Assembly: GCA_948744995.1 (NCBI GenBank)
Contig: CAPZCD010000001.1
Location: forward strand, 1 to 39,844
Length of the DNA stretch: 39,844 nucleotides
Reading direction: 5' to 3'
Origin: an uncultured Rickettsiales bacterium
GTDB lineage: Bacteria > Pseudomonadota > Alphaproteobacteria > Rickettsiales > UBA1997
Within the stretch, counting starts at the first letter, position 1. Each line of letters starts with the position of its first letter. A program made the translations under genes and the position numbers. The notes below the pieces were generated by a model that was not told the origin of the DNA, did not search any database, and was given only the letters and a program-made list of their open reading frames with translations. Below, in pieces: positions 19,102 through 36,932 of this stretch.

Positions 19102-19282
19102 TATTTTAAGGAGAATATTGTATGTTCAGTGTTATAGTTGAAATGATTAATATTTTTTTAGGTATTTTTTGCTGGGGTGTGATCTATTTTGGTCGGTTTT
19201 TTGATACTTTATATCTGTGGATTTTGATTATAGTTAATGTTATTTCAAATTATTTAACTTTTGGTTTTAAAAATGTAAATGT
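18892..19282 (+). repeat. 391-bp direct repeat, copy 1 (tail 3' end + intergenic + 5' end of membrane-protein gene)
   Basis: It aligns without indels to 20648-21038, with about 15 mismatches by eye, 13 of them in the Gly-rich coding part. Weaker similarity continues to ~19320 and ~21088. Confidence 0.9.
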
Positions 19283-19941: not shown

Positions 19942-19952
19942 TAACTTTAGGA

Positions 19953-20528: not shown

Positions 20529-20546
20529 ATTTTTGAAGATAGAGGA

Positions 20547-20857: not shown

Positions 20858-21038
20858 TATTTTAAGGAGAATATTGTATGTTCAGTGTTATAGTTGAAAT
20901 GATTAATATTTTTTTAGGTATTTTTTACTGGGGTGTGATCTATTTTGGTCGGTTTTTTGATACTTTATATCTGTGGATTTTGATTATAGTTAATGTTATT
21001 TCAAATTATTCAACTTTTGGTTTTAAAAATGTAAATGT
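20648..21038 (+). repeat. 391-bp direct repeat, copy 2
   Basis: See 18892-19282. Confidence 0.9.
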
Positions 21039-21102
21039 ATATATAAATGTATATATATCAAATGCATGTAGTATTCCTATATGTATAATTCCAGATCCTT
21101 GA
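20878..21102 (+). pseudogene. truncated copy of membrane protein A (cassette 3 partner)
   Basis: The first ~54 codons are almost identical to 19122-19739 (MFSVIVEMINIFLGIF(C/Y)WGVIYFGRFFDTLYLWILIIVNVISNY...). Homology decays after ~21040 and the frame stops at 74 aa, against 205 aa for the full copy. Confidence 0.6.
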
Positions 21103-21212
21103 CAACTTACTAAATTCTTCTTTTACAAAAGGCATAATAATGACAAATCCTAATAACATCTTAATAGATTTAAATTCAAAAAAGTAAAAAATAATTATTA
21201 TCAAAAACTTTA

Positions 21213-21791
21213 TTGAAAATAGTTTTATTATTATTTATATTAGTAATAATTATTCAAATTCACTTTAATATTTTGAAGTTTTTTAGATATTTGATTTTAT
21301 TAGTGGTTGCCACTTTTTTTTGTTTGTCTAGCTGGGCCGAAATCATAGATAGCAAAAAAATTATCAACAAAGATTTTGATGTTTGGAGAGTATCCTGTGA
21401 AGAAGATGAGATGTTGGGTAAGATGAGGTGTAGACTATTTGTTGAAGTAACAGGTGATACAACGTTTTTTGTAATACCAAACGAAAACAATAAAATACTA
21501 ATTATTTCAAAAGATGGTTATTACGGTAAAAGTGTTTTCGTAAAAGTTGATAATAATAAAATATTAGCATCAAAGTCACTGTCGGATTTAAAATATGGAG
21601 CTGTTGAATTTAGTAAAACAGATCTCGATTTAATCTTTAAACAAATGCAGACGGGTAAATTTGTTTATCTGCGATTTTATATAAAAGATAAGGTTTCTGT
21701 TAATGGTTATAAGGAGATGACGGTAAAATTCTCGCTGAATGAATTTAAAAATGCTTTGGACTACTATAATAAGCAGATCAAGAAGTATTAA
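21213..21791 (+). CDS. periplasmic IalB-like (invasion-associated locus B family) protein, tentative
   Basis: 192 aa from TTG 21213. An alternative TTG at 21273 gives a classical signal, MKFFRYLILLVVATFFCLSSWA. WRVSCEEDEMLGKMRCRLFVEV fits the IalB W-x-v-x-C...C-x-l pattern, and the later VKVDNNK...FKQMQTGKFVYLRFY fits its second block. This rests on motif recall only. Confidence 0.5.
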   Translation: MKIVLLLFILVIIIQIHFNILKFFRYLILLVVATFFCLSSWAEIIDSKKIINKDFDVWRVSCEEDEMLGKMRCRLFVEVTGDTTFFVIPNENNKILIISKDGYYGKSVFVKVDNNKILASKSLSDLKYGAVEFSKTDLDLIFKQMQTGKFVYLRFYIKDKVSVNGYKEMTVKFSLNEFKNALDYYNKQIKKY

Positions 21792-22856: not shown

Positions 22857-22880
22857 AGGTCAGGTATAACCTGACCTTTT
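22857..22880 (+). terminator. rho-independent terminator of gap
   Basis: AGGTCAGG-tataa-CCTGACCT is a perfect 8-bp stem. TTTTGAGTTGATTTTTT follows it, 20 nt after the gap stop. Confidence 0.7.
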
Positions 22881-22941: not shown

Positions 22942-23142
22942 ATGGTAACAAAAAATAACCCAAGGAATAGGGGTGATTCCGGTAAAAAGGTTGTTTTTAA
23001 TGGTAAGGAAGTAGAACCGGTTATGTTCTATGATACCGATAAAAAAATAAGTTATTTGTCCGCTAAAGTTTCGAAGTCTAATGATGTTATTTGTGATTCG
23101 AATAATGATCCTATTAAGTGGAGTAGTGTTGCTGGTAATTAG
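22942..23142 (+). CDS. small hydrophilic hypothetical protein upstream of the giant gene
   Basis: 66 aa with a strong SD, AAAGGAG, 8 nt before the ATG. It has no signal peptide and no recognisable family. It ends 36 nt before the giant ORF. Confidence 0.5.
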   Translation: MVTKNNPRNRGDSGKKVVFNGKEVEPVMFYDTDKKISYLSAKVSKSNDVICDSNNDPIKWSSVAGN

Positions 23143-23178
23143 AGTTTGATAATTTTTATTTAAGGTAAGGGAATTATA

Positions 23179-26100
23179 ATGAAAAACAAACAGTGTTTTT
23201 TTGGTAAATGTCGTATTTTTTCGTTTTTTAGATGTTTAGCTAGTGTTTTTATAATACTTATTTCTGTTAATGGTGGGATTTTTGGAGTTACATTACCAAA
23301 TTGTAATGTAGATATAAATGGAGTTGATGATAATTTGATACCTGATTTAATACAGTTAGCAACTACCGGTAATAATACAAATAAGCTATTCCTTATCGTA
23401 AAAAAAGATGAATTTGATAAGGGCAATATGTGTTATACAGCAACTGATAGTTATGTTAAGTGTGATAATGCAAGAATAAAAGGAGTGGGTGATTGTACAG
23501 ATAATATTGTTTGTGAAAGTGGCTATAGCGTATCTTGTGAGAGTAATAATAATGTCACCACTTGTAAATGTAAAAAGGGAACTGAAACAAAGGATTTTAC
23601 CGGAAAAGGAAATTGTACTGATTTTAATAACTATATTTCCTGCGAATCAAAAGATACTAGCTTAGATAAGGCTTGCTATCCGGAAAATCATATATGTTTG
23701 AAATATGGAAGTTATTATAAAAATAATGAAATGCTGTATAAGAAAGACGTACAAAATGAGAATGATAAATTTTATGTCTATAAAAAAAACATCATCAATT
23801 CTGGCACTAATAAAAATTGTGAATTTTATGTATTTCCCTGTGATTACAAGATTAGGAATGAATCAGCACCGGCTTTGAATGCCTGGCAAAATCAAGTTAA
23901 TTTAGTTGTTTCAGGGACTGCTAATGATAACAATAAATTATTTGTAAAAAATATATTTGGTAGTTTGGGTAATATGTCATTTTTTATCCAAGCAGGAGAG
24001 TGTGATATTAGTAATGGTACCTGTAGTGGTAACTGTAGTAGAGATAGTGGTGATAATCAATGTTCTACAGCTGAAGTTATAAAGAAAAGTTACTATTATA
24101 AATATTATGATAGTAATAGAAATGTACTGTTTTATTATGAGAAAAACATAGCCACCGGTAAGGAGAATAATATTGGAAGAATTTGTAATAAATATCTTCC
24201 AAATTGTGTTGATTTAAGACCTAATGATTCTATGGTTGTTTTATATCAGAATAAATCAAATATATCTAAACTTGAAAATAACACTAAAGCCAGAATAGAT
24301 TTTTACAAGAATAATATAGGGGATGGTTTTTCGGTCAATGAGGCTAATTTGTATTATTTATCATCTCCAGGCGCAGCTGATGCGTTATGTCTATCTAAGG
24401 AAGGCGCTGGTAATATTGATATTGGTTATTGTTCTGATATTGGTAAGAATGGAAGTTTAAAGTATAGATATGGTTTGACTTTAGCTTATTTTAAAAAAGA
24501 CAATACAGTAAAGCCAAATTGTTATTTGAAAAGTTGTATAGATCTCACTCCAGAAGAATTTGAAGTTATAAAAAGGGAAGGTGCAATTGATAAAAAGTAT
24601 TGTAGTGAATACTATTGGTTGTCTAATAGTAAGAGTTTAAAATATTTTCCGAAAGAGAAACCAATATACTGTTCGGATATTGAAAATGGTCATCTTAAGT
24701 TTTCTTTGCTGCATGAAATGAAAAATTTCTGTACCGACTATGATGATGAAGGAAAATGCAAAAGCGAGAAGGATATAAAATACTACGCCGGCGGTGGTCT
24801 TGATAGAGAAAAAGGTAATTGTTATGTAAAAAATTGTTATTCTTTAACTAAAGATGAAAGAAAATTGGTAGCTGATGCTAAGATTAATAATATAGGGTTG
24901 GAAATAGAAAGAGCTTGCCCCGAAGGAAGTAACTGTGATTATCAAAATAATTTTAAATCTGATAATATACCGGTATATTGTGACAACGGTTTTTTATTTA
25001 ATAAAGATACTCCCGGTTATACGAATTTTGAACCGATAAATCTTAATGTTATTCCATGTTATGAGTTTCAAAAAGAACAGTTAAATAATATTGGTGCCGA
25101 AAGAGTTTTATTGTTTACTGAATTAATCGGAAAAGATGGTAAACATGGTATGGGTGACAAAAAATATAATACAGATTTAGCCTTAAAGAAGGAAGATTCA
25201 GATTCTAGGTTTGTATTTTGTAGAACTCACTACGTACCTTTAAATTTAATAAAAAAAGCTGAAGATAATGGCACAAAAGCATCCTTTTTGAGGACGAGAG
25301 TGATATTGGCTAATGAAGAAGATAAGGCTGGTAATATTAATATTTATAGCTATGAAAATAAAAAAACCTTAGAAGATTTTGGTATAAAATATTTCCATGA
25401 TGATATGGGATATCAAAAGGTAAAATTTACATCGCGTAAACTGGATGAATTTAAGGATGTAAATAATTATATGAATATTTTAAGTTTTGTGGATAATGTA
25501 TTTCCCTACTATAATGCTGATTTAGCCGGTATGCAATCGTCTGATATATTTAATGGCAACGAAATAATCGGTTTTAAAATTAATGCCGTAAAACAAAAAA
25601 ATTCTGTTTTTTTTGACTGTTTAAATGATGAAAATAGAAAAAAACAAAAACAAAGTAAAGATGATGATTTAATAAAAGACGAAAATTGTAAAGATTGTGT
25701 TGGTGGTAAAGACGGAGATAGTCAAGAAAAATGTTTATATAATAAAAAAAATAAAGATAATGAAAAAATTTGTATGAAATATGTTCCTTTAGACTATGAA
25801 TGCAAACGTGAATGTTGTGATGGTAAAGATAGTATTACAGAAAATTACTGTTATATTGAAGACTTTGCTAAAGAAAAAATGTCGAATGCAAATTTTTATA
25901 TAGCTGAAACTGATAATACAGGTTATTTAGATTGTCCTGTGTATGCATACGCTGCTGCTGGTAGTGAAGAATATAAAAAATTTACAAATGGTATTATAGG
26001 TGATTTTTTAGAAGAAGTTGGAAAAGATAAACTTGATATAATAAAAGCTGCTTGTGATGATTTACTACCTATTGTTGATGACAGAAAATTACCAGAGGCT

Positions 26101-29100
26101 AGTATTTTACAACAATTAATAAAACCAAATAAAGTTGATATTAATTTTTCCAATAGTAGTGGTTCCCCTGGTAAACATGATCTAGAACGCTATGGTTGTA
26201 CTAAATTCAATGAAGTAAATCTGTATACTCATGGTTTATATGGTTGTAAATTACCAGATATAGATAGTTCATATTTTAATACCATTCTCAATCCGGTAAA
26301 TTTGTATAATGGTTCTGAAAAACCGACAGAACAAAAAATAACCGACCTTAGTGTATGCTCTAGGTATCAAAATGATGTACTTGGGGAAAGCAGCAAATGT
26401 GGCCAAAGAGAAGGAAGCCAATACAGGGATAAATGTTTAGATTTTAGTTTAGATGTATCAGATCGTAATTCAAATACACTGGATGATTCACCACAAAAAT
26501 CTAAATGGATATTTGAAGAATCAACCGGCGGTTCGAGATTTAGAACTTTTAGAGAGAATAGAGATATATATGCTATAAGAGATTTTCACACCTATCACTA
26601 TTGTTCGGCCACTGAAAATTTTGAAGGTAAAGATGATAAGGGCGCTGCATATGTATACGCCGCGGGATTTACAGCAGGAGCTGCCATAGGTACTGTTGCT
26701 TGTCCAATTGGATGCATCCCGGGGTGTATCTTTGCATTATTTGCAACCGGAGCTTGTATAGCCATTTGTATACCTGTCTGTATTGTTGCTACTGCTGCAG
26801 TAACTGGTGCTATCTATTTAGCTGCCAGATACGATCAGTGGAATTTAAATTTACAAAATGATTTGCAAATAGCCCGTGGTTATAACTTAAATAATTATCA
26901 AAATAAAGGTTTTATAACTCCAACTCTTGTGACAGATAATAACAACTACATCTATAGATTTTATTCTCGTTCGGATGATATAGAGGAAGATTTAGCTAAT
27001 AAGTTGAATGCTAATAGTGAATATTTTAAAGAAAACACTTTAGGTATAGATATATTAAAGAAATGTGGTATTAGTGTTATACCTAAAGATAGTACAGGTG
27101 AAGTTATAAATTTTGGTTTACTTGAATTAACTAAATCCGAACATGATGATAATATGGGATATAATTTTAGTTATAAGATTAAAAAATTTGAAGATGATGG
27201 TAAAGTTTCTATTGATGATTGTGGTGAATCCGATATAAAAAATTGCCTAAATGAAAAACAAAGGAAATGTGTTGAAGGTTATGGTGTGTCATTTTTTGAT
27301 GGAAATTTTATTAAATATATTAATAAAAATTTTATGCTAAACGAAGGCGGATTTTTAAAAAGATACAATAAAGGTGATATAGCAAAAGATGATTGGGGAA
27401 GTTTAGCCAGTCCTTCAAATAAAAATCGTGATTGGTTACCGGTTGACATTATTTATAATACTTTGGATACACAAAGTGAAGATGATATTAAGCAAAATGG
27501 AAATTGTAAAATAGGACTATTTGGCGATCCAATAGGCGATTTATCAAGATGCAGGGGTTTTAGTCTAAATTGCAAAAATGGTTCTGATAAAGATAAAGTT
27601 ATTTGTAATAAATTGGGAACAGAATTTAGTGAAGTACAAACATTTTTTACCGAAAGTCAAGCATTAAAATTGCCATTAGCAGGTCACCCTTTCTTTTTTT
27701 ATACATTACTTACACCAAAAAATACTCCGGAAATGTTTGATCCTTCTATTTTTGTTGAAGAATTTTGTAAATACAGTACTGATGCGTTTAGTTGTAAAGA
27801 AGGAAAAAGTATGACACCCAACGATGGTTTAAATAAGCTAGTACTTAATTTTTTTGAACCTATATTAAAAATTGGTTATGAATATAATGGCGGTATCGCC
27901 AATAACGATTTTAAAAATCATTTTACTCAATATAATAATTTTATTTCCTATATTAGTTCATTAAATAACAGTAGTCCGGATAACTATAGCTATAGCTGTC
28001 CTTATCAGGTAAAATATAAAAGTAACTATATTCAAACCGAAAGACAATATACTTACGTACTACACAGAACTTTCGAACAAGGTGCACATGATGAATATAT
28101 ACCTAAGGTATGTCTCTACAGAATAGTTAATGTTGAAGGTAGCAATAGTGTTAATACAATTTATAATTTTTATATAGATAATAAATGTTCTAAGAAAGAT
28201 GGTGTCTTGCAAAAAAACGGTTATATTATTATAGATAATAATGTTATGTGCTTTCCAAGAGCTCCGCTCAGTTTTGATAATCTAGTATTAGCTGAAAGCC
28301 CGGACATCAATTATAATAGACCATACATAAATTCAAAGATTACTGATAAGAATAGTGGAACTGATTATAAACTTATGCAAAGTGACGGAAGTGATGATAT
28401 AATGGATTTTGGTGAGAGTAGAGATCTTGGGTTTGGTTTAAATTTCACCAGAAGCTACTGCTCTAAGTTGTACTATGATTATTATAAATATGTAGATCAA
28501 TTAGAAAAAGGTGGGGATACTCTTGACCAAGCGACTATTAACCGAATAAATAAATCAATAAATAGTATAGAATCTTATGTGAGAAGTGATTGTGATAAAG
28601 AAAATGGATATGAAAGCGAATTTTTGATAAATGAATCAGAAATGAAATCTAAAATTGATGATGAAAATAAAAATATTCCAGATAGTGAAGTTGTTTTCAA
28701 GGAAACAGTAATAGTAAGAAAAAATAATAGTGCTTATGGTGGTTTTAATGAATTATGCGTTAGCGATTATGATATAGATAATATTTTTAGTATAAATAAG
28801 GAATATGCTATTTCCGATGAATTAACTGATTTTCCTGAAGTTTTTGCTTTTGCGAGTGACAATAATGATGGAGTTGATACAAAATGTTTGCTCAGTGACA
28901 GCAGTAGAGAAGATACTTCCTGTATGGTTACCGATAGGTTTGCTTATCTATATTTAACCAAAGCTGAGGAAGAGAATTATTCAGTTAATTGTGAAGATGG
29001 TAAATGTAAAAAAGGTGTTAGTGGTTGTAATGAAGAGCAATGTAGATTATATGTTAATGTAGATTCGCTTGAAAGAATTCCACTAAAAAAGTATGAATGT

Positions 29101-32100
29101 GTATTAGAAAATGGAAAGGTAAATCCTGAATTACTTACGGACGTAAATAATATAACAGACGAAATAGCAGAAAAGATAAGTGCATGTTATAAAGGTGGTT
29201 TTAATTATGCGGGTATTGTGCACGATTCTATAGATTCCAGCGAAGTAAAAACACAGTGTAAATGTAAAAACGTGACTACAGCGGAATTTTCAACTTATAA
29301 TAATGAAGTCTTAAAAATTAGAAGAATGACTCCGAGAGAATATGGGCTTTGTATTGACCTGAAAAAGCCTATCATATGCCCTGCCGTTAGATACTATGAT
29401 TCTACAAAAACATATGTTGATGACAATTTAGCGCTTGGTAAAACTCAAGAAGAAATGGATGAAAAAAGTGAACAAAAGTATTATGAACAGCATCTATGGC
29501 GAACAGCTGAAAAAATTGCTGGTATTATACCTAGTGTTTTCTATAGTAACACCCTAGGTCATGCGGAATTTCCAGCTAGTCTATATTGTGAAGACGAGAA
29601 AGATTGTTTGGGTGAATCTAAAAATGTGACCGGTTCTTGTTTGGGTTATTGGAAAAATGGTGATGCTATTCCAACCGCTACCTGCGAGGTTAAAACCTAT
29701 AAAAATAAAGAGAATGGAAAAATTAGAAATGTCTATGAATATAAGCTAAAAAATGGTACGGAATGTGTTAGATATAGATGCCCTGGTATTAGTGGCAACG
29801 ACTATTTAGACGAGTTTGAAATAGATAAAAATGCTTCTAATGTTTTTACAGCAGCAGAAATTACAGACTTTAATAATATAAATAGAACTGACTATAGAAG
29901 TTTTATCAATAATGAAGAAATTGATGTTTATTCTGTTGATAAGAGAGGTTTATCTAATGGTTTTGCTGCCTGGAGAGAACTAGAATCTGGTGATTTTGCT
30001 AAGGATAGATATGAAATTGAGGGTGATATTTTTGTAAATTGTCTAACCGGTTATGGTTTAGCTGGTTCAAATAATAGAATTTCGGATGCATTATTAAGTT
30101 TAAATACAGAATTAATAAGAGGTATAATTAAAGGAGAATGTTATTATAAAGTGGATAATAATGTATATCTCAATAATAATTTGCAACAACAACATATCAA
30201 AATATGTGAATCCGTTAGAAATGATATATATAAGTTTATATATAGTAACACTATTAATTTAACTAAAAACGCTTCAGAAACACCAAAAAAAGATAAACCA
30301 AAAAGATATTGTAACCAAAAAGGCGAGTGGATGCCGGTTGAAGATGTTTATAATAAAATGATCTTAGACAGCAGCAGTCTTGATAATAATTTATATCATA
30401 GTGGTGTGACAAATTTATGGCTTGATATCTTTAATAAAGAAAGAACTTATACTATTTCAAATGTTCTTGATGAAAATACTAGTTTAATAGATAAGGTCAG
30501 CCAATATGGTTATTGTGAGAGGTTGGTTTGTAGAGGAATAGAGCAACCGGATGAAAATTATTATATTGATGAATTTTTTAATGAAGAAAATGCAGATAGT
30601 AAAACTAAAGACATATATAAATTTTGGTTGCATTCAGGAGGTGCAAACTGGAAGGTTACTTCAGCCCCAAGAAATTCTTCAAATAAGATTACAAATGATG
30701 CCAATGCAGATCCTAATTCTAGTGAATTTTCTAGTAGAAGTTTAACAAACATATTCTCACTTGTAAGAGATAATGAATTTGATGATTATATTATAGGCAA
30801 TAAGTATAAATATCTAAAAAAGGTAAAAGGTGAATGTAGAAAAGAATTTGGTTATTATAATAGAGGTACAAGTTTTTCATTAACTGAGGTTGCTAAACAA
30901 GTTAGCGCAGTAAATTCCTTAGAAGCTGATGAAAATAGTAAAAAATGTACCTTAGATAAAGAATTATGCAAAAAAAGGTGTATCAATTTAGGTATTGATG
31001 CTAGTGATTGTAGTAAAAGATGCAGCGAGGATAATTTAGCATGTGAAAAATGTGTTGATTCCAGAAAAGCAACGAGTTTTGCTATAAATGGAAACGATGA
31101 ACCATATCGCGTATGTACCAGTGTAGGTGTATGGGGTGAAGTTAATAATAAATGCGTAAGATCGTGCGAGTTACTCCATTTATATAGAACAAATGTTAAT
31201 AGTGATTTGTATTCCTCTAATGAACAAATTAACATTAATGATATAAATAAAAATGAGTTAAAGATAGAAAATCATGATGTTATATCTTTTAATTCAGGAA
31301 ATATTAGTTATGAATATATGGAAGGTAGATTTTTAATGTACGATTTTAGAAATCCAAAATTAAAAAATGAGAGAAAATATACACAAGGAGACTCTATATT
31401 TGGAGGTGCTAACTGGCCAAGAAGTATTGTTAATGTGGATAATCCAGATGGATCTGATTGTGATAGTAACGGAAAATGTTTGAGATATGTAGAAGTTGAA
31501 GGAGTATGTAACAAAGAATATGATAAACAAGATGTAAGTGATCCTACCCAATATGGGAATAGCACAGTTGATTCTTATGGTAATCCAAAAGGACCAACAA
31601 GAAAATGTTATGAAGATGGAACCTGGGGCCCAATTTCTAATAAGTGCTTTTTAGAAAAGACTTGTGCCATATTATTTTTATCTGTTTCAGATATAGCGGA
31701 TCTTATAGCAAAATATAATAATGCAAATACTAATCTAAATGATTTAAACCATGCTATAAGTGATATATATGCCGAACATTTAGGTGAGAAAAATGAAAGA
31801 TCAGGGTTACTAACAATTGATACTAATAATGGTTTAGTTGGTTATCCCATAAGTTGTAATGGTGTTGTAGATAATACTATTAATGGTTTTGAATCTATAA
31901 AAGTGGAAGGTTTAAGACAAACATATTGCAGCTCCCCTGGTTGTTGTGAAAATGCAGTGTCAATGGTTTGCAATAGTTCTGGAGAATCATGTGCTAATGG
32001 TGTTTGTCATATTGCCGGTTGGTCATTTAACACATTGGAATTAGAAAAATACTTTATTCCAAAAACTTGTAATATATCTTTAAAAAGAGATCCGGAAGAT

Positions 32101-35100
32101 AATAATATTTATTATAAAATTTATGGTACACCAAACACTGTTTTTAGCGATAGTAATGATTTGTTTAATAAAATAGATAGACTAAATTTTGGGTTTGCTG
32201 GTAAAATTAGTAATTATCCAATAAAGAATTCAGCTAAACATTACACAAAAGAAAGCCAATTTGATTCAGTTTATAATAAAATAAATAATGCTACAAACAG
32301 TAATTATAAGGTTAAAAAAACGGGTGATACTAGTACTGGTGTTGATATTGCTATTCCTGCTCTATACGATAAGACTGTTAATATTAATGGTTCCATAGGA
32401 GGAAGAAGTGGAAGTAACAAAGTATATTACTCTCACCAAATATATGCAACCTGTGATAATAGATATTTTTATAATGAAGTTTCTGGAAATGATTATTATA
32501 ACAAATTAGCCATTTTCTCTTGTCAGGGAGAAAGTGGTAATCTTAGATTTAAACCAGAATATACAGATGGTGACTATATATTAAAATCTGAAACATCACC
32601 TGCTGATGCCTGCAAGCCAAAAACTTGCGGTAGTAATTCTTATCAAATAGGTTGGTCCTTAAGTCAAGTCAAAGAATTTGTTGATAATAATGCCAAAGAA
32701 TATAATAATGATAAGAATAATAATACTGAGGAATATAACAATAAAAAGTACGAGGGGCTTAATAAATTTTCACAATTAACGTGTCCAGATAAATATGCTT
32801 TTGTCATAAAAAAAGATACAGATAATAAACTTGATGATAGTCTTAATGTTGGAAGTTATTTTTCTTCTAATAATGAAAGTTATGAAGCCGATGGCCTTGT
32901 GAGTTCTTTAAAACTTACCTGTACTGCAAAAAGATCCGAAAATGCATATACTAATACTAATGAACCACAGGAAGTTTGGAATAGTAATTCATCATTTAAG
33001 ATAATAAATGGTAAAACTGCTAATAATGCATATGATGCCAACAGATATGGAGATTTACAGTATAACGATTTACCTAAGACTTTCTGCAAAGATATAGCCA
33101 AAAATGATTGTAAGACAGTAACAGAGACAGAAATTATAAATAATGGTGATATTTTCTCACGTAATGCTGATGATAATACAAATCCTGGATACTGTGTTAG
33201 AATGGGCTGTCCTAGATTAAATTTAAAAATTGTTAAGGATGAAGATACTTTAAAAGCAACACAAGCTGGAAATTCTACTTCCTCTAACACTTTTTCTGAT
33301 ATACCGGGAACTTTTACTTTACCTTTAAAATATGGAAATGATGATACTAATAACTATTATGATTTTGGTGATGTTGTCGTTATTCAGTCGTTGGATGGAG
33401 ACTATAGCGAAAATGACTGTCCATCTGATATATGTGGAGATGATAAATATATTAAAAAATTTGTCCAATATACTAGCGCTGGAGTAGGAAATGGACAAAT
33501 AGGAAGTAGTTTATGCGGATATAATCAAGATATATATAATGATGGAGGTAGCGATAAATTTAGTTATAATTATTATTTTGACCTTAAAAAAAATGAAGAT
33601 AGAAAGGAAGATATTTCAAATTGTTTTAATAATTTATCTTCAAAAGATTCATTAAGTAAGACAAATGTCGGTGGTTATACAAAAATTAATGATTCATTAT
33701 ATGTAAAATATAGAGATGATTATAAAAGTGAAATAAATGTAATTAACAATGTTAAGTCTTTAGCTAACTATACTGTAACAAGAGATAATGATGATATAAA
33801 AGGCAAAGCTAACGACCTTTTCAAGAAATATACTTTTGATAAGATTAGTATCAGTAATGGTGAAATAAATAATAATGTTAGTGAAAAATTAAGTTCATTA
33901 CGAGAATTTGTCGATGGTCAGATTAAAACTATTAATGATTATGCCGTTGGAGAAGCGAAAAAACTATCAAATGGTACTAATACTAACGTTAGCTATCACT
34001 GCTTGTATGATGATGAAGTCACAAGCTTGAATACAGGCAATGGAATTAGATTTACCAGTACAGGACATGGACTATTCAAGTGTGGAACTAGCTCTTGTAA
34101 AGATAAAGAAGTGATTTTTATTAAAAATGGTGATGATAAATGTAAAAAAACTGTTACTAATGGTGATAAACAAGAAACAGTATCTGGTTCATATTATTTG
34201 AATGTCAATGATTTTGAGACAAAATTTAATACTGAAGCCGAAGCAAAACGCAAAAATTTAAGTGATAATTTTAAGGCAAGTGATAGTACTGATGCAACTG
34301 TAAAATCATTGTATACTGAGTATTATGATTTTTATTTAGCTGAAAGTTATTTTAAGGCGGAAGGAAATGCTTGTAGAATAAAATATTACAATAGTTTTAT
34401 ATCCGAAATAATTGGTTCGGTGGCAGAAGAAGATGGAGTAACTGATCCAATAATACAAAAAATATCTAAAATGACTACTCCAAAGGGACAAGTTTATGTA
34501 ATGAAAAGTGATGGTGAAATAATAATGAATTTTGAAGGTACAGAAGATGATATTGATGAAACAACAAACTCTATAGACTGTTCCAAAATTGAGATTAAAG
34601 AAGAAGATAGTATAGTATTTGCATATCCTATTGATGAAAATGGGAATATTTCTTTCGCTAACTATGAAAAATACATTAATAATGATGGTGTGATTTGCAA
34701 AAATTATTCAGTAAACGATGATGGAGTTGAGACTATAAAGGATTGTAATAATTCAATCTCAATTCCAAATGAAGTTATGGAAGAATATGAAAATTACTAT
34801 TTAAATATTTTTGAAAAAATTAAACCAGTTATAAATGATCATAATGAATATTATAAGAAAAAATATCAGGATGAAGAAAATAAATGTAAAGAATTTTATA
34901 GTGATTTTTTAGATGAAAAGTCTAAATTTGGTACAAGTTATACAAATACAATTAAAAATGGTCTGTTTATGGCTATGAAGTGTACTCCTGAAGGCTGGAT
35001 TGTTCAAGGTAAACCTAGTTGTAAGAAGAGATGCAGCAGTCATGCAGATTTTAGAATTGACCCAGATGGTGCTGGAGATTTTGACATTACAATAAAAATT

Positions 35101-35592
35101 GATAATTTAAGACATTCAATAAATACTGGTATGATAGAAGTAGGGGCTCACAGAGGTTTAGCTAATTGTTCTGCAGCATTGAGTAAGGTATATGGTAGAA
35201 ATGGGGCGTCATTTTCATGCAACAATGGAGAAATGACAACAAATTTGCTTACCACAAAAGAGGGTGGCGTTTTAAAAAATGGCTATAAATACCACAGCAA
35301 TGGATTAGCATGGCATATATATTGTAGTGGTACATTTAGTGCCTTTGGAATAACAACCCAAAGAAATGCCGATGTTGGTGGTTTTTTTCATACTGTCGAA
35401 TGTAATAAAAATGATAGCTTCTGTTGGCGAGACCATTATGAAAATGATGTTGCTGTTTTGTGTCCTAATAGTAAGGATGTACATAAACTAGTTCATTCAT
35501 GCGACACATTTTATAATTGTATTAATGATCACAAATGTGATACTAAATTTGATACTGTTACAACTGTAAATTATGAAGCTAATTTTCATTAA
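23179..35592 (+). CDS. giant (4137 aa) cysteine-rich membrane-anchored protein, function unknown
   Basis: This is an uninterrupted 12,414-nt ORF. It has an N-terminal hydrophobic anchor/signal (RIFSFFRCLASVFIILISVNGGIFG). Cys occurs roughly every 15-25 residues along the whole length. A central 62-residue hydrophobic block spans aa 1155-1216. Motifs of the form C-x3-4-G-x-W-x5-8-C-x2-4-C and C-x2-5-C-(D/S/P)-L recur. All antisense ORFs are short. Confidence 0.9.
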   Translation: MKNKQCFFGKCRIFSFFRCLASVFIILISVNGGIFGVTLPNCNVDINGVDDNLIPDLIQLATTGNNTNKLFLIVKKDEFDKGNMCYTATDSYVKCDNARIKGVGDCTDNIVCESGYSVSCESNNNVTTCKCKKGTETKDFTGKGNCTDFNNYISCESKDTSLDKACYPENHICLKYGSYYKNNEMLYKKDVQNENDKFYVYKKNIINSGTNKNCEFYVFPCDYKIRNESAPALNAWQNQVNLVVSGTANDNNKLFVKNIFGSLGNMSFFIQAGECDISNGTCSGNCSRDSGDNQCSTAEVIKKSYYYKYYDSNRNVLFYYEKNIATGKENNIGRICNKYLPNCVDLRPNDSMVVLYQNKSNISKLENNTKARIDFYKNNIGDGFSVNEANLYYLSSPGAADALCLSKEGAGNIDIGYCSDIGKNGSLKYRYGLTLAYFKKDNTVKPNCYLKSCIDLTPEEFEVIKREGAIDKKYCSEYYWLSNSKSLKYFPKEKPIYCSDIENGHLKFSLLHEMKNFCTDYDDEGKCKSEKDIKYYAGGGLDREKGNCYVKNCYSLTKDERKLVADAKINNIGLEIERACPEGSNCDYQNNFKSDNIPVYCDNGFLFNKDTPGYTNFEPINLNVIPCYEFQKEQLNNIGAERVLLFTELIGKDGKHGMGDKKYNTDLALKKEDSDSRFVFCRTHYVPLNLIKKAEDNGTKASFLRTRVILANEEDKAGNINIYSYENKKTLEDFGIKYFHDDMGYQKVKFTSRKLDEFKDVNNYMNILSFVDNVFPYYNADLAGMQSSDIFNGNEIIGFKINAVKQKNSVFFDCLNDENRKKQKQSKDDDLIKDENCKDCVGGKDGDSQEKCLYNKKNKDNEKICMKYVPLDYECKRECCDGKDSITENYCYIEDFAKEKMSNANFYIAETDNTGYLDCPVYAYAAAGSEEYKKFTNGIIGDFLEEVGKDKLDIIKAACDDLLPIVDDRKLPEASILQQLIKPNKVDINFSNSSGSPGKHDLERYGCTKFNEVNLYTHGLYGCKLPDIDSSYFNTILNPVNLYNGSEKPTEQKITDLSVCSRYQNDVLGESSKCGQREGSQYRDKCLDFSLDVSDRNSNTLDDSPQKSKWIFEESTGGSRFRTFRENRDIYAIRDFHTYHYCSATENFEGKDDKGAAYVYAAGFTAGAAIGTVACPIGCIPGCIFALFATGACIAICIPVCIVATAAVTGAIYLAARYDQWNLNLQNDLQIARGYNLNNYQNKGFITPTLVTDNNNYIYRFYSRSDDIEEDLANKLNANSEYFKENTLGIDILKKCGISVIPKDSTGEVINFGLLELTKSEHDDNMGYNFSYKIKKFEDDGKVSIDDCGESDIKNCLNEKQRKCVEGYGVSFFDGNFIKYINKNFMLNEGGFLKRYNKGDIAKDDWGSLASPSNKNRDWLPVDIIYNTLDTQSEDDIKQNGNCKIGLFGDPIGDLSRCRGFSLNCKNGSDKDKVICNKLGTEFSEVQTFFTESQALKLPLAGHPFFFYTLLTPKNTPEMFDPSIFVEEFCKYSTDAFSCKEGKSMTPNDGLNKLVLNFFEPILKIGYEYNGGIANNDFKNHFTQYNNFISYISSLNNSSPDNYSYSCPYQVKYKSNYIQTERQYTYVLHRTFEQGAHDEYIPKVCLYRIVNVEGSNSVNTIYNFYIDNKCSKKDGVLQKNGYIIIDNNVMCFPRAPLSFDNLVLAESPDINYNRPYINSKITDKNSGTDYKLMQSDGSDDIMDFGESRDLGFGLNFTRSYCSKLYYDYYKYVDQLEKGGDTLDQATINRINKSINSIESYVRSDCDKENGYESEFLINESEMKSKIDDENKNIPDSEVVFKETVIVRKNNSAYGGFNELCVSDYDIDNIFSINKEYAISDELTDFPEVFAFASDNNDGVDTKCLLSDSSREDTSCMVTDRFAYLYLTKAEEENYSVNCEDGKCKKGVSGCNEEQCRLYVNVDSLERIPLKKYECVLENGKVNPELLTDVNNITDEIAEKISACYKGGFNYAGIVHDSIDSSEVKTQCKCKNVTTAEFSTYNNEVLKIRRMTPREYGLCIDLKKPIICPAVRYYDSTKTYVDDNLALGKTQEEMDEKSEQKYYEQHLWRTAEKIAGIIPSVFYSNTLGHAEFPASLYCEDEKDCLGESKNVTGSCLGYWKNGDAIPTATCEVKTYKNKENGKIRNVYEYKLKNGTECVRYRCPGISGNDYLDEFEIDKNASNVFTAAEITDFNNINRTDYRSFINNEEIDVYSVDKRGLSNGFAAWRELESGDFAKDRYEIEGDIFVNCLTGYGLAGSNNRISDALLSLNTELIRGIIKGECYYKVDNNVYLNNNLQQQHIKICESVRNDIYKFIYSNTINLTKNASETPKKDKPKRYCNQKGEWMPVEDVYNKMILDSSSLDNNLYHSGVTNLWLDIFNKERTYTISNVLDENTSLIDKVSQYGYCERLVCRGIEQPDENYYIDEFFNEENADSKTKDIYKFWLHSGGANWKVTSAPRNSSNKITNDANADPNSSEFSSRSLTNIFSLVRDNEFDDYIIGNKYKYLKKVKGECRKEFGYYNRGTSFSLTEVAKQVSAVNSLEADENSKKCTLDKELCKKRCINLGIDASDCSKRCSEDNLACEKCVDSRKATSFAINGNDEPYRVCTSVGVWGEVNNKCVRSCELLHLYRTNVNSDLYSSNEQININDINKNELKIENHDVISFNSGNISYEYMEGRFLMYDFRNPKLKNERKYTQGDSIFGGANWPRSIVNVDNPDGSDCDSNGKCLRYVEVEGVCNKEYDKQDVSDPTQYGNSTVDSYGNPKGPTRKCYEDGTWGPISNKCFLEKTCAILFLSVSDIADLIAKYNNANTNLNDLNHAISDIYAEHLGEKNERSGLLTIDTNNGLVGYPISCNGVVDNTINGFESIKVEGLRQTYCSSPGCCENAVSMVCNSSGESCANGVCHIAGWSFNTLELEKYFIPKTCNISLKRDPEDNNIYYKIYGTPNTVFSDSNDLFNKIDRLNFGFAGKISNYPIKNSAKHYTKESQFDSVYNKINNATNSNYKVKKTGDTSTGVDIAIPALYDKTVNINGSIGGRSGSNKVYYSHQIYATCDNRYFYNEVSGNDYYNKLAIFSCQGESGNLRFKPEYTDGDYILKSETSPADACKPKTCGSNSYQIGWSLSQVKEFVDNNAKEYNNDKNNNTEEYNNKKYEGLNKFSQLTCPDKYAFVIKKDTDNKLDDSLNVGSYFSSNNESYEADGLVSSLKLTCTAKRSENAYTNTNEPQEVWNSNSSFKIINGKTANNAYDANRYGDLQYNDLPKTFCKDIAKNDCKTVTETEIINNGDIFSRNADDNTNPGYCVRMGCPRLNLKIVKDEDTLKATQAGNSTSSNTFSDIPGTFTLPLKYGNDDTNNYYDFGDVVVIQSLDGDYSENDCPSDICGDDKYIKKFVQYTSAGVGNGQIGSSLCGYNQDIYNDGGSDKFSYNYYFDLKKNEDRKEDISNCFNNLSSKDSLSKTNVGGYTKINDSLYVKYRDDYKSEINVINNVKSLANYTVTRDNDDIKGKANDLFKKYTFDKISISNGEINNNVSEKLSSLREFVDGQIKTINDYAVGEAKKLSNGTNTNVSYHCLYDDEVTSLNTGNGIRFTSTGHGLFKCGTSSCKDKEVIFIKNGDDKCKKTVTNGDKQETVSGSYYLNVNDFETKFNTEAEAKRKNLSDNFKASDSTDATVKSLYTEYYDFYLAESYFKAEGNACRIKYYNSFISEIIGSVAEEDGVTDPIIQKISKMTTPKGQVYVMKSDGEIIMNFEGTEDDIDETTNSIDCSKIEIKEEDSIVFAYPIDENGNISFANYEKYINNDGVICKNYSVNDDGVETIKDCNNSISIPNEVMEEYENYYLNIFEKIKPVINDHNEYYKKKYQDEENKCKEFYSDFLDEKSKFGTSYTNTIKNGLFMAMKCTPEGWIVQGKPSCKKRCSSHADFRIDPDGAGDFDITIKIDNLRHSINTGMIEVGAHRGLANCSAALSKVYGRNGASFSCNNGEMTTNLLTTKEGGVLKNGYKYHSNGLAWHIYCSGTFSAFGITTQRNADVGGFFHTVECNKNDSFCWRDHYENDVAVLCPNSKDVHKLVHSCDTFYNCINDHKCDTKFDTVTTVNYEANFH

Positions 35593-35612: not shown

Positions 35613-36293
35613 ATGTCCCCCACAAACCACCGCCAGAACCTCAGAAAAAGATTTTCAATCTCAAAAGAATCATTACCAGATTATGAGTTGCTAGAGATGC
35701 TACTATTTCTAGCAATTCCACGCAAAGACACCAAACCACTAGCCAAGATGCTTTTGAAAAAATTTTGTAGCCTAGATGGCGTAATAAATGCCGATAAGGA
35801 TCAACTTTTAAGTATTGACGGAATAGGAGAAGCTACAGTGAATCTCCTGCAACTTATACACGAAATATTAGTTCGCATAGCTGTTAGTGATCTGAAGAAA
35901 AATAGACTAACACTTGATAATTTTGTTAAAGTTGAAAAATATTGCAGAACTAGGATCGGAGGCATGGTTAAGGAGGAGATGCTAGTCCTATTTTTTAATG
36001 GCAGGATGGAACTCGTAAATGAGGAAATCATAAATACCGGTAACCACAGTGAAGTCAAGGTCTATAAGAATATGATAATAGCTAAAGCTACACAAAATGG
36101 TGCCTGCGGAATTATATTGGTTCATAATCATCCATCCGGTAATTGTGAGCCGTCACTTGCAGATATAAAAGTTACAAAAGAGCTTAAGGAAATATTGGAT
36201 CAACTTGAGTTGAAGCTTTTTGACCATATAATTGTTTCTAGTAAAGGTAGTTATAGCTTCCACAAAAATAGACTTGTGATTGATAATTTTTAG
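35613..36293 (+). CDS. radC: RadC-family JAB/MPN domain protein
   Basis: 226 aa with an N-terminal HhH-like region (YELLEMLL..LL..F.SL..V..A....L..I.GIGE) and the C-terminal JAMM motif ILVHNHPSGNCEPSLADIKVTKEL. It starts 20 nt after the giant ORF stop. Confidence 0.9.
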   Translation: MSPTNHRQNLRKRFSISKESLPDYELLEMLLFLAIPRKDTKPLAKMLLKKFCSLDGVINADKDQLLSIDGIGEATVNLLQLIHEILVRIAVSDLKKNRLTLDNFVKVEKYCRTRIGGMVKEEMLVLFFNGRMELVNEEIINTGNHSEVKVYKNMIIAKATQNGACGIILVHNHPSGNCEPSLADIKVTKELKEILDQLELKLFDHIIVSSKGSYSFHKNRLVIDNF

Positions 36294-36320: not shown

Positions 36321-36932
36321 TTATTTTTTAATATTATCAATTTCAAAATTACTATAACCTTCAAAAAAATAACTAATATCAATACCTTTCATATAAATCT
36401 CTCTGCTGTCTACGTCAGATGTTAGCGCATTTTTTAACAAACATTTTAGTTCTATATCTTTTATAACACTTCTTTCCATTGCAGACAAATACTCCTCTTT
36501 ATCAACCAAACTCCAATTAATAACTTTTTTTATTTCCTTTTTTAAAATTAAATCAAGCCAAATCCTTGTGCTTCTGCCGTTCCCTTCTCTAAAAGGATGT
36601 GCTACGTTCATTTCTACATATTTTTCAATTATTTGGTCATAATTATTTTGTGGCATTTTTTCAATATTTTCTAAGGATTGTTCCAGATACATTATAGGAG
36701 CAAAGCGAAAATTACTTTTTGAGATATTTACATCCCTTATTTTCCCGGCAAAATAATATATATCTTCAAATAAATACTTATGTATTTGTGATAAACCTTT
36801 AAATGTCCTTATTTCAATTTTATTTATATCCCCACTATCAAATAATTTTTTTGCTTTTTGTTTTGTAATTTCTTCTTCAACTTTATTCAATTTAATTTGA
36901 TTTGCTATATTTAATTTATTTTCTAAAACCAT
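36321..36932 (-). CDS. fic: Fic-domain protein (AMPylase type) with C-terminal auto-inhibitory motif (class III-like)
   Basis: 203 aa with the canonical Fic motif [12 protein letters not shown] (HxFx(D/E)GNGRxxR). The C-terminal ..DISYFFEGY.. fits the (S/T)xxxE(G/N) inhibitory helix motif at S187-E191-G192. Confidence 0.9.

What the first reader, a model, noticed from the sequence alone, without database searches (positions are those of the whole stretch)
23179..35592. A 12.4-kb gene encodes a 4137-aa cysteine-rich giant protein with no obvious family
One ORF fills about 31% of the window in a genome that otherwise looks compact. It is not built like the usual bacterial giants. I see no long tandem nucleotide repeats of the RTX, Big, cadherin or Rhs/YD type, and no NRPS/PKS or enzyme motifs. 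Instead Cys occurs every ~15-25 residues over the whole length, embedded in N/K/D/Y-rich sequence. The N-terminus has a signal/anchor, and the first 150 aa show EGF-like runs (CESGYSVSCESNNNVTTCKCKKG). Such a density of Cys implies an extensively disulfide-bonded extracytoplasmic structure, which is unusual for bacteria and reminiscent of eukaryotic surface proteins. It could be a surface or host-interaction scaffold. The tight flanking by a small SD-bearing ORF (22942) and radC (20-nt gap) suggests co-transcription.
Basis: partly seen in the sequence, partly recalled or inferred. Interest (0 to 1): 0.85.

Follow-up and report, generated by a model that had tools for sequence, protein, structure and literature searches.

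The report
Orphan giant cysteine-rich Rickettsiales envelope protein
This 12.4-kb gene is real and encodes a 468-kDa exported, membrane-anchored protein held together by about 100 conserved cysteines; it belongs to a small undescribed family found only in uncultured Rickettsiales-like bacteria and matches no known domain or fold, so its function can only be inferred.

Summary
ORF 23179-35592 (+) encodes 4137 aa with 162 Cys (3.9%; neighbours 0-2%) and has no DNA or protein tandem repeats. It is not an artefact: the identical protein lies on 5 public contigs, and intact 3.9-4.5 k-aa orthologues exist in at least 10 species-level MAGs labelled Rickettsiales or Alphaproteobacteria (termite, deer and other guts).

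The family is tiny: 39 hits among 1.84 billion representative proteins. No member matches Pfam or NCBIfam, and PDB sequence profiles found nothing. AlphaFold models of the conserved core (pLDDT 80-93) find nothing in PDB or BFVD.

Architecture:
- a cleavable signal peptide;
- a 127-kDa N-domain;
- a conserved core (aa 1217-2900) with three weakly sushi-like modules;
- a C-terminal ~700 aa that varies between strains.

Cys and Trp are the best-conserved residues (94-106 conserved Cys). A 66-aa basic protein gene lies directly upstream in every locus examined; radC linkage is not conserved.

Best reading (inferred): a Sec-exported, hairpin-anchored, disulfide-stabilised envelope or surface scaffold with a variable distal end, probably for contact with a host or partner cell. 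The EGF-like claim is not supported.

The parts
22857..22877 (+). Terminator-like hairpin plus T-run after gap (GAPDH). It marks the likely start of a new transcription unit.
   Evidence: 9-bp stem, 5 GC pairs, then TTTGAGTT; 0.2 such sites expected in shuffles.
22942..23142 (+). Gene for a 66-aa basic protein (7.3 kDa, pI 9.2) with no signal peptide. It is the conserved upstream partner of the giant gene and belongs to a wider small-protein family (N-terminus MGTKNNPKNR).
   Evidence: It lies directly upstream in all giant-bearing loci examined. It also occurs without a giant gene in 82 metagenome loci. No Pfam, NCBIfam or PDB match.
23166..23172 (+). Shine-Dalgarno-like TAAGGGA, 6 nt before the ATG of the giant gene.
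   Evidence: Similar AGGGAG or AAGGT motifs precede the orthologues.
23179..35592 (+). Giant gene: 4137 aa, 468 kDa, pI 5.1, 162 Cys.
   Evidence: Orthologues.
23179..23289 (+). Signal peptide (aa 1 to about 37): basic n-region, hydrophobic core, small-residue c-region before the first invariant Cys (C42).
   Evidence: Hydropathy. Orthologues show AxA-type sites just before (E/D)YxxC. The cleavage site is inferred; SignalP was not available.
23290..26634 (+). N-terminal ectodomain (aa 38-1152, 127 kDa, 52 Cys of which 35 are conserved). It contains a duplicated ~80-aa module 'YCSD...NCYLKSC.LT..E' at about aa 417-467 and 497-567.
   Evidence: hhalign gives probability 96.9 for the duplication.
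26635..26826 (+). Hydrophobic hairpin (aa 1153-1216): two long helices joined by a tight uncharged turn, each carrying a CxxxCxxxC stripe. Present in almost all giant members and absent from the 2.4-2.6 k-aa subfamily.
   Evidence: Hydropathy. AF2 helices at tile residues 4-38 and 44-67. Partial Cys conservation.
26827..31878 (+). Conserved core (aa 1217-2900), shared by all family members including the short subfamily (window aa ~1410-2850). aa 1519-2109 is modelled with confidence as mostly beta structure.
29779..31665 (+). Three large modules (aa 2201-2446, 2451-2659, 2663-2823). Each is bounded by a Cys-x3-5-Cys junction and carries GGAxW, (E)GxC and P.R.C...G.W...C motifs. The C-terminal half of each is weakly sushi/CCP-like.
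   Evidence: Invariant columns. hhalign probabilities 80 and 61. Sub-threshold sushi-type signals.
33496..35589 (+). C-terminal ~700 aa (aa ~3440-4137): the least conserved part between species and the strain-variable part in a sister lineage.
35613..36293 (+). radC, 20 nt downstream with no terminator between. It is probably co-transcribed here, but the linkage is lineage-specific.
   Evidence: Downstream genes differ in other lineages.

Best explanation
The gene encodes the founding member seen here of an undescribed, vertically inherited protein family restricted to uncultured Rickettsiales-like bacteria from anoxic guts and some aquatic habitats.

Proposed mechanism; everything after the sequence features themselves is inferred:
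1. The protein is exported through Sec by a cleavable signal peptide.
2. The 64-residue two-helix hairpin (aa 1153-1216) stays in the cytoplasmic membrane as the only anchor. Both the 127-kDa N-domain and the 331-kDa C-domain therefore lie on the oxidising, extracytoplasmic side.
3. About 50 conserved disulfides lock both domains into a rigid, protease-resistant scaffold.
4. The conserved core (aa 1217-2900, including three sushi-like modules) acts as a stalk or framework.
5. The fast-evolving, recombining C-terminal ~700 aa is the distal, exposed end, which contacts a host or partner-cell surface or is under immune, phage or receptor pressure.

The gene is expressed from the promoter of a conserved small-protein gene directly upstream. 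It is dispensable in at least one strain.
For: Real and conserved:
- The identical protein is on 5 contigs.
- Intact 3879-4529-aa orthologues occur in the genome-scan loci. The family has 39 members among 1.84e9 representative proteins, about 23 of them 3.4-4.9 k aa.

Export and anchoring:
- Signal-peptide-like N-termini occur throughout the family.
- The internal hydrophobic region sits at the same relative position in nearly all giants and is modelled as two long helices.

Disulfide scaffold:
- Cys and Trp are the most conserved residues. 106/162 Cys are at least 80% conserved, and 94 remain conserved in a wider alignment, on both sides of the hairpin.
- Only 2 of 156 Cys columns vary among strains.
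- A DsbA-family gene lies 2.5 kb from the cassette in a relative.

Native core gene:
- G+C and skew match the flanks.
- The gene sits among housekeeping genes, next to gap or pgk in several lineages.

Exposed, fast-evolving end:
- Window versus L001: the giant protein is 48-63% identical, against GAPDH 90%, NrdD 94% and RadC 81%.
- The tail is the least conserved region.
- Among 9 strains at least 98% identical, 73% of variable sites lie in the last 17% of the protein.
- DNA divergence is 53 differences/kb in the last 2 kb against 0-7/kb elsewhere, and it falls to 0-1/kb right after the stop codon. Both dS and dN are raised there.

Rickettsiales affiliation: record titles, plus VirD4, a 1339-aa TrbL/VirB6, Surface_Ag_2 and Ank genes near family members.
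Against: - Nothing shows localisation or expression.
- No outer-membrane translocation device (autotransporter barrel, TpsB, T1SS genes) is in or next to the gene, so exposure beyond the periplasm is unexplained.
- The hairpin loop carries no charge, so topology is not fixed by the positive-inside rule.
- Window Cys parity is uninformative (52 in the N-domain, 101 in the C-domain).
- The short subfamily lacks the hairpin, so anchoring is not universal.
- Raised dS in the variable tail points to recombination rather than proven positive selection (omega 0.47). Another divergence patch lies nearby in an unrelated gene.
- One strain carries 2 nonsense and 3 frameshift lesions, so the protein is not essential.
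- Only about 40% of the protein was modelled, and only about half of that with confidence.
Confidence: 0.5

Rival explanations
1. A purely periplasmic or envelope structural protein. It would form a disulfide cross-linked lattice or periplasm-filling scaffold that stiffens the envelope, functionally like the chlamydial cysteine-rich outer-membrane complex or the periplasmic proteins of Holospora infectious forms, without exposure to the outside.
For: - A signal peptide plus an inner-membrane hairpin, and no outer-membrane export module in or beside the gene.
- The C-terminal 280 aa are Cys-rich, so they are not a beta-barrel.
- The disulfide framework is conserved along the whole length.
- The lineages are host-associated.
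Against: - A strain-variable, recombining C-terminus and an evolutionary rate far above the neighbouring genes are more typical of exposed proteins.
- No similarity to OmcB/OmcA models.
- The gene is dispensable in one strain.
Confidence: 0.25
2. A secreted toxin or effector whose hydrophobic hairpin inserts into a target (host) membrane, as in the translocation regions of large toxins or the bilobed hydrophobic domains of chlamydial Inc proteins. The variable C-terminus would be the receptor-binding part.
For: - A bilobed ~60-aa hydrophobic domain in the middle of the protein.
- A variable C-terminus.
- T4SS genes near some loci.
- A subfamily without the hairpin shows that the rest of the protein can exist as a soluble exported protein.
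Against: - A Sec signal peptide and about 100 conserved, presumably oxidised cysteines do not fit T4SS or T3SS delivery.
- No catalytic or toxin domain was found in 12 members.
- No immunity-like gene is conserved downstream.
- The gene sits in a core housekeeping context.
Confidence: 0.1
3. A divergent member of a known giant adhesin, toxin or repeat family (RTX/Big/cadherin adhesins, Rhs/YD, FHA/TPS, autotransporters), or a horizontally acquired eukaryotic EGF/sushi protein.
For: Only sub-threshold sushi-type signals:
- Foldseek top hits are EphA4/EphA2 ectodomains (probability 0.47 and 0.30).
- Pfam Ephrin_CRD matches 5 of 16 module copies at E>=0.067.
- The GABA-B1a sushi domain matches at E 0.69 with C, G, W and C aligned.
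Against: - No Pfam or NCBIfam hit in the window protein or in 11 homologues.
- Seven tile profiles find nothing in PDB sequences.
- No tandem repeats.
- The phmmer scan of 1.84e9 proteins returned 39 proteins, none matched to any known family here; the four shortest and weakest hits were not examined.
- Base composition matches the flanks.
Confidence: 0.03
4. An assembly chimera, a pseudogene or a non-coding open frame.
For: - A sister species carries broken copies (L001/L002).
- L004 has an A9 run where A10 would restore the frame.
Against: - The exact protein is on 5 independent contigs.
- Intact orthologues in many species show purifying selection on Cys and Trp and omega of 0.26 over codons 1-3600.
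Confidence: 0.01

Closest known systems
Giant bacterial surface adhesins (RTX/T1SS adhesins such as LapA, SiiE, MpIBP; Ebh/Bap-type)
   Same: Size class (over 400 kDa) and an extracytoplasmic location. A membrane-proximal anchor is followed by a long scaffold and a distal, variable, presumably ligand-binding end. Such proteins are often dispensable or variable between strains.
   Different: No tandem Ig, cadherin or RTX repeats, and essentially non-repetitive. Cys-rich rather than Cys-free. Has an N-terminal Sec signal instead of a C-terminal T1SS signal. No adjacent ABC/MFP genes. Anchored by an internal two-helix hairpin. No sequence or fold similarity.
Rickettsial Sca autotransporters and the Anaplasmataceae Msp2/OMP-1 (Surface_Ag_2) surface proteins
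   Same: Surface or host-interaction proteins of the same bacterial order. A Surface_Ag_2 gene lies near one family member.
   Different: No autotransporter beta-barrel or passenger domains. The C-terminus is Cys-rich. No homology was detected.
Chlamydial cysteine-rich envelope proteins (OmcB/OmcA, the disulfide cross-linked outer-membrane complex)
   Same: Host-associated Gram-negative bacteria that use densely disulfide-bonded exported proteins as envelope material (comparison from general knowledge).
   Different: OmcB is about 60 kDa, seven-fold or more smaller. No Pfam match to its family in any of 12 members. The hairpin anchor and modular giant architecture are absent from OmcB.
Eukaryotic sushi/CCP-type modules (e.g. 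the Eph receptor cysteine-rich region and the GABA-B1a sushi domain)
   Same: Modules end in P.(K/R).C...G.W(G)......C followed 3-5 residues later by the next Cys, like CCP junctions. The best, though non-significant, fold and profile hits are to sushi-containing ectodomains.
   Different: The modules are 165-250 aa rather than ~60 aa and carry an extra GGAxW(P)RS element. The Pfam Sushi model does not match. All signals are below significance.
Chlamydial Inc proteins and toxin translocation hairpins
   Same: A bilobed ~60-residue hydrophobic domain made of two helices with a short turn.
   Different: Here the hairpin sits between two huge Cys-rich exported domains behind a Sec signal peptide. 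No T3SS is involved and there is no sequence similarity.

Membership tests
RTX / T1SS giant adhesins | Tandem Ig-like, cadherin or Big repeats and GGxGxD nonapeptide repeats | tested here: not met
   No Pfam hit. No tandem DNA repeats. No self-BLASTP hits.
RTX / T1SS giant adhesins | C-terminal T1SS signal, no Sec signal peptide, and adjacent ABC/MFP export genes | tested here: not met
   A hydrophobic N-terminal signal is present. The flanking genes are housekeeping genes that differ between lineages; the one ABC-type gene seen upstream (L009, minus strand) is not conserved, and no MFP gene was found.
Type V autotransporters (incl. rickettsial Sca) | C-terminal 12-16-strand beta-barrel domain, Cys-poor, ending in an aromatic residue | tested here: not met
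   No Autotransporter Pfam hit. The last 137 aa contain 8 Cys and the protein ends in ...ANFH.
Rhs/YD and other polymorphic toxins | YD/RHS repeats, a C-terminal toxin domain and a downstream immunity gene | tested here: not met
   No Pfam hit in 12 members. Downstream genes are not conserved.
EGF-like domains | Six-Cys ~40-aa module matching the EGF profiles and conserved in orthologues | tested here: not met
   No EGF model at E<=1. The cited run (aa 112-134) is a lineage-specific insertion; C112, C120, C129 and C131 are present in only about 2 sequences.
Sushi / CCP domains | Four Cys (1-3, 2-4), an invariant Trp, ~60 aa, and a match to the Sushi profile or fold | tested here: inconclusive
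   The pattern C...(E)GxC...C...G.W...C recurs three times. The Pfam Sushi model gives no hit. Ephrin_CRD matches 5/16 copies at E>=0.067. GABA-B1a sushi matches at E 0.69 with C, G, W and C aligned. Foldseek gives the EphA4 ectodomain at probability 0.47. The modules are 3-4 times longer than a CCP.
Chlamydial cysteine-rich OMPs (OmcB family) | Sequence match to the family profile | tested here: not met
   No Pfam hit in 12 members at E<=0.01.
Sec-exported membrane-anchored proteins (general class) | N-terminal signal peptide with an AxA-type cleavage site | tested here: met
   Hydropathy and N-terminal sequences of the window protein and orthologues. Cleavage is inferred; no SignalP was run.
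Sec-exported membrane-anchored proteins (general class) | Hydrophobic transmembrane segment(s) conserved in position | tested here: met
   aa 1153-1216. Present in nearly all giants at aa ~1050-1230 (P0027 at aa ~1570-1620). AF2 models two helices.
Disulfide-bonded extracytoplasmic proteins (general class) | Cysteines actually oxidised, and a Dsb system present in the genome | not testable with these tools
   Only the conservation pattern is available. A DsbA-family gene lies near the cassette in relatives L015/L016. The window's own genome beyond 39.8 kb was not available.

The most novel reading that the evidence does not exclude
The family is a previously unrecognised kind of bacterial cell-surface apparatus. 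It would be a single ~0.5-MDa, non-repetitive polypeptide built from new folds and stabilised by about 50 disulfides, anchored by an internal helical hairpin, with eukaryote-like sushi-type modules and a recombining distal tip. Uncultured anaerobic Rickettsiales would use it to attach to, or be recognised by, their still unknown gut eukaryotic or animal hosts. That would make it a lineage-defining host-contact organelle with no counterpart in the studied Rickettsiales.
Probability: 0.3. Interest if true: 0.85.

Novelty: new variant of a known kind. Interest (0 to 1): 0.66.

Why it matters
Rickettsiales are the classic obligate associates of eukaryotic cells, yet the gut and anoxic lineages that carry this gene are known only from metagenomes. 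How they meet their hosts is unknown. In the window the gene takes 31% of a 40-kb contig, and it stays intact across at least ten species. That makes it a strong candidate for a lifestyle determinant.

For protein science it offers over 4000 residues with no detectable homology or fold match, and a density of conserved disulfides that is rare in bacteria. It is therefore a source of new folds and a test case for how a Gram-negative cell exports, oxidises and places a 468-kDa protein.

The strain-variable C-terminus and the natural pseudogene strain give ready-made contrasts for population-genomic and imaging studies.

Tried and rejected
- Whole-protein search of the 5.8-billion-cluster database timed out. 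Three sub-queries gave only 5 partial proteins, so that index holds the family poorly. The index-free scan was needed.
- Pfam and NCBIfam on the whole protein, on 12 homologues and on 16 copies of one module gave only noise: HP1454-like_C at E 0.002 below its cut-off, PIN_8, EutH and CIMIP3.
- PDB sequence profiles for seven tiles covering nearly the whole protein (all but the hairpin, aa 1166-1216): the best hits were YjeQ at E 0.0045 over a Cys-rich stretch, mS29, crystallin and a bunyavirus glycoprotein. All were judged to be chance.
- Foldseek of both AF2 models against PDB, and of the better one against BFVD, gave no hit at E<=0.001 (best 0.047) and no probability above 0.5. The beta-propeller-like hits have TM scores below 0.1 and were rejected.
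- The small protein gave weak bL31-type-B and bS16 hits (E 0.11-0.27). These were rejected because the bL31 HPFYTG end and start motifs are absent.
- I first read the small ORF as a dedicated partner or chaperone of the giant protein. I weakened this after finding it without any giant gene in 82 metagenome loci.
- Cys-parity counting per domain was uninformative.
- Literature searches for a described giant Cys-rich Rickettsiales protein, or for the host lineage, found nothing relevant. The Hepatincolaceae idea was not pursued because it could not be tested here.
- Rfam finds no RNA genes in the window.
Full report
**1. The observation**

A TAAGGGA Shine-Dalgarno-like motif lies 6 nt upstream.

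- It has 162 Cys (3.92%), with a median spacing of 15 residues, a mean of 25.6 and a maximum of 133. Eleven other ORFs in the window have 0-2.1% Cys.
- N, K, D and Y are enriched, as expected for 30% G+C DNA.
- No meaningful tandem or direct DNA repeats exist, and there is no self-similarity by BLASTP.
- G+C content and GC skew match the flanks. The gene therefore looks native, not recently acquired.

**2. It is a real, conserved gene**

- The identical 4137-aa sequence is recorded on 5 contigs in NCBI, ENA and Logan assemblies, for example GCA_948754625.1 contig CAQANF010000014.1, with the same neighbours.
- A scan of one genome per GTDB species found 10 loci. All are MAGs titled 'Rickettsiales bacterium' or 'uncultured Alphaproteobacteria', from termite guts, a water-deer colon and other metagenome bins.
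- Six of these loci carry single intact ORFs of 3879-4529 aa with 3.0-3.5% Cys. A seventh, L004, is broken only at one poly-A run.
- An index-free phmmer scan with aa 1801-3000 against 1.84 billion representative proteins returned only 39 proteins at E<=1e-3. About 23 are giants of 3.4-4.9 k aa. Four form a shorter subfamily (2436-2577 aa, 3.9-4.7% Cys) and the rest are fragments.
- Nothing outside the family was hit. The only names attached anywhere are 'hypothetical protein'.
- Genes near family members fit the Rickettsiales label: VirD4, a 1339-aa TrbL/VirB6, a Surface_Ag_2 (Msp2/OMP-1) protein and an ankyrin-repeat protein. NrdD, PFOR and FTHFS point to anaerobic habitats.

**3. Architecture**

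- *Signal peptide.* Family members examined with a complete N-terminus start with a basic and then hydrophobic segment. It ends in a small-residue (often AxA) site just before the first invariant Cys. I read this as a cleavable Sec signal peptide; this is an inference, since SignalP was not available.
- *N-domain.* It spans aa 38-1152 (127 kDa). It contains a duplicated ~80-aa module, YCSD...NCYLKSC.LT..E, with hhalign probability 96.9.
It sits at the same relative position in nearly all giants. AlphaFold models it as two long helices joined by a tight turn. Each helix carries a partly conserved CxxxCxxxC stripe.
- *C-domain.* It spans aa 1217-4137 (331 kDa). The core shared by all members, including the short subfamily, is window aa ~1410-2850.
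- *Internal modules.* Within aa 2201-2829 three large modules recur. Each begins after a Cys-x3-5-Cys junction and contains GGAxW, (E)GxC and P.R.C...G.W......C.

**4. The cysteines are the point of the protein**

- In an 11-sequence alignment at about 30-40% identity, Trp (0.87) and Cys (0.86) are by far the most conserved residue types. 106 of 162 Cys are at least 80% conserved.
- 94 Cys stay conserved when more distant members are added: 35 in the N-domain and 59 in the C-domain.
- Cysteines specific to single lineages occur in clusters inside insertions, for example aa 112-131 and 2590-2625.
- Among nine strain variants of a sister species, only 2 of 156 Cys columns vary.

This is the signature of a disulfide framework on the oxidising side of the membrane, on both sides of the hairpin. 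It fixes the most economical topology: signal peptide cleaved, both large domains outside, hairpin as the sole anchor. The actual oxidation state could not be tested. A DsbA-family gene lies 2.5 kb from the cassette in one relative.

**5. No known family or fold**

- Pfam and NCBIfam give nothing above threshold for the window protein. Pfam gives nothing for eleven other members.
- Profiles of seven tiles covering nearly the whole protein find nothing credible among PDB sequences.
- Two AlphaFold2 models were built with 18- and 21-sequence alignments.
  - Tile aa 2100-2900: mean pLDDT 57, with aa ~2549-2869 at 70-93.
  - Tile aa 1150-2140: mean pLDDT 67.9, with aa ~1519-2109 mostly at 80-93 and largely beta structure.
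- Foldseek found no match with E<=0.001 in the PDB or in BFVD.
- AlphaFold DB could not be searched, and the models could not be cut into domains. 'No known fold' is therefore provisional.

**6. The sushi lead**

Three independent signals, all below significance, point the same way for the aa 2201-2829 modules:

- the top Foldseek hits are Eph-receptor ectodomains, at probabilities 0.47 and 0.30; the Eph cysteine-rich region is sushi-like (general knowledge, not tested here);
- Pfam Ephrin_CRD appears for 5 of 16 copies of module D, best E 0.067;
- the best PDB profile hit is the GABA-B1a sushi domain, E 0.69. The alignment places PK.RKC...G.W....RC in register.

However, the modules are 165-250 aa rather than ~60 aa, and the Sushi model itself does not match. 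I file this as inconclusive.

**7. Context**

- A terminator-like hairpin follows gap.
- Next comes a 66-aa basic protein gene (22942-23142), then the giant gene 36 nt later, then radC 20 nt after the stop codon with no terminator between.
- The small gene (48-84% identical across the genome-scan loci) lies 20-63 nt upstream of the giant gene in the ten loci where the gap was measured, and directly upstream in the other family loci examined. These include the short subfamily and the most distant members, despite at least six different upstream contexts.
- In several lineages a GC-rich hairpin sits between the two genes.
- The small protein is not specific to the giant gene. 82 metagenome loci, mostly freshwater, encode homologues. 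In the three such loci whose flanking genes were scanned against Pfam, the gene sits beside pgk and is followed by a ~255-aa alpha/beta hydrolase.
- The simplest reading is that the giant gene sits in, and is retained behind, the transcription unit of a widespread small housekeeping-type gene near gap/pgk.
- radC linkage is confined to the window's own lineage.
- No secretion, usher or immunity genes are conserved nearby.

**8. Evolutionary behaviour**

- Between the window and its sister species (L001), GAPDH is 90% identical, NrdD 94%, RadC 81% and the small protein 84%. The giant protein is only 48-63% identical.
- The last ~700 aa are the least conserved part in most comparisons, at 19-27%.
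- In another species (P0007 lineage), nine strain variants are at least 98% identical overall. Yet 122 of 168 variable columns fall in the last 17% of the protein.
- At the DNA level two of those strains differ by 0-7 sites/kb along the locus. They differ by 53 sites/kb in each of the last two kilobases of the gene, and this falls to 0-1 sites/kb immediately after the stop codon.
- Both dS (0.081 versus 0.009) and dN (0.038 versus 0.0023) are raised there, with omega 0.47. This indicates a mosaic or imported allele rather than simple positive selection.
- That segment corresponds to window aa ~3440-4137.
- A population of the sister species carries two nonsense mutations and three 1-nt deletions relative to a 99.3%-identical strain. 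Two of the deletions are in poly-A runs. The same lesions appear in two separate assemblies. The gene can therefore be lost.

**9. Interpretation**

- Shown: the gene is real. The family is orphan and restricted to these lineages. The signal-like N-terminus, the hairpin and the Cys/Trp framework are conserved. The protein evolves fast, has a mosaic C-terminus, and is always preceded by the small gene.
- Inferred: Sec export, hairpin anchoring in the inner membrane, extensive disulfide bonding, and a role as a rigid envelope or surface scaffold whose distal C-terminus contacts something outside the cell (confidence about 0.5).
- Main rival: a strictly periplasmic, envelope-stiffening role (0.25). 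This is favoured by the absence of any outer-membrane export device.
- A membrane-inserting secreted effector is less likely (0.1), because it fits poorly with a Sec signal and oxidised cysteines.
- Membership of a known adhesin or toxin family (0.03) and an artefact (0.01) are essentially excluded.

**10. Novelty and limits**

As a giant exported bacterial protein it belongs to a known general kind. Its non-repetitive, disulfide-dense build, its internal hairpin anchor and its lack of any detectable homologue or fold make it a clearly new variant, and possibly something more.

The limits are:
- no localisation or expression data;
- no full genome for Dsb or secretion inventories;
- only about 40% of the protein modelled, and only about half of that with confidence;
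- no HHpred or AFDB search;
- taxonomy taken from record titles and marker genes only.

Noticed in passing
window 22942-23142; loci L017-L096: The 66-aa protein (N-terminus MGTKNNPKNR, then GKE.EP, AK, P..W) belongs to a widespread uncharacterised small-protein family. 82 metagenome loci, mostly freshwater and including a 1.09-Mb contig, carry it. In the three loci whose neighbours were scanned, it lies next to a divergently transcribed pgk and upstream of a ~255-aa alpha/beta hydrolase. It has no Pfam, NCBIfam or PDB match.
   Followed up: partly
L001:4000-16166 and L002, compared with L004:3444-15628: Two assemblies of one strain population carry the giant gene as a pseudogene. The lesions are CAA>TAA at L001:6828, GAA>TAA at L001:13943, and 1-nt deletions at 5509, 9982 and 15131, two of them A9>A8. 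The 99.3%-identical L004 is intact except for an A9 run where A10 would restore the frame. This could be slipped-strand (phase) variation or homopolymer assembly error.
   Followed up: partly
L100:14001-16035 vs L101 (P0007 lineage); corresponds to window ~33496-35589: Between-strain DNA divergence jumps from 0-7 to 53 differences per kb in the last 2 kb of the giant gene and stops at the stop codon. A second patch of 37 differences/kb lies at L100:18001-19000, in or next to an rlmN-like gene.
   Followed up: partly
L003:3351-3394, L006:1187-1230, L007:1930-1992, L009:4249-4302, L011:5979-6021: In several lineages the short gap between the small gene and the giant gene holds a GC-rich inverted repeat, for example GTAACCCCCTATGGGGGTTAT. 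It may be an attenuator or a processing site. The window's own gap has none.
   Followed up: no
window 26701-26781 (aa 1175-1201): The two hairpin helices each carry a CxxxCxxxC stripe (CPIGCIPGC and CIAICIPVC), which would place the cysteines on one helical face. The stripes are partly conserved in close relatives only. Their purpose is unknown; possibilities include a metal site, an inter-helix link or acylation.
   Followed up: no
P0031-P0034; loci L015/L016 and L098/L099: A shorter subfamily (2436-2577 aa, 3.9-4.7% Cys) has the signal peptide and the conserved core but lacks the internal hairpin. It keeps the small upstream gene. L015 also has pgk, a DsbA-family gene and a 1339-aa TrbL/VirB6 nearby.
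   Followed up: partly
window 17323-21791 and 3145-7968: Two blocks of consecutive ORFs have no Pfam or NCBIfam match: 592, 205, 191, 90 and 192 aa in the first block, and 120, 109, 284, 498 and 386 aa in the second. The 192-aa ORF before gap is syntenic and 71% identical in the sister species.
   Followed up: no
window 81-500 and 36321-36932 (-): An IS1-type transposase fragment sits at the contig start. A Fic protein adenylyltransferase gene on the opposite strand lies between radC and nrdD; it is present in the window lineage but absent from the same spot in L001.
   Followed up: no
window 30946-31053 (aa 2590-2625) and 23512-23571 (aa 112-131): Cys-dense insertions specific to the window's lineage and its closest relatives. 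One reads CTLDKELCKKRCINLGIDASDCSKRCSEDNLACEKC. New cysteines appear to be added in clusters.
   Followed up: partly
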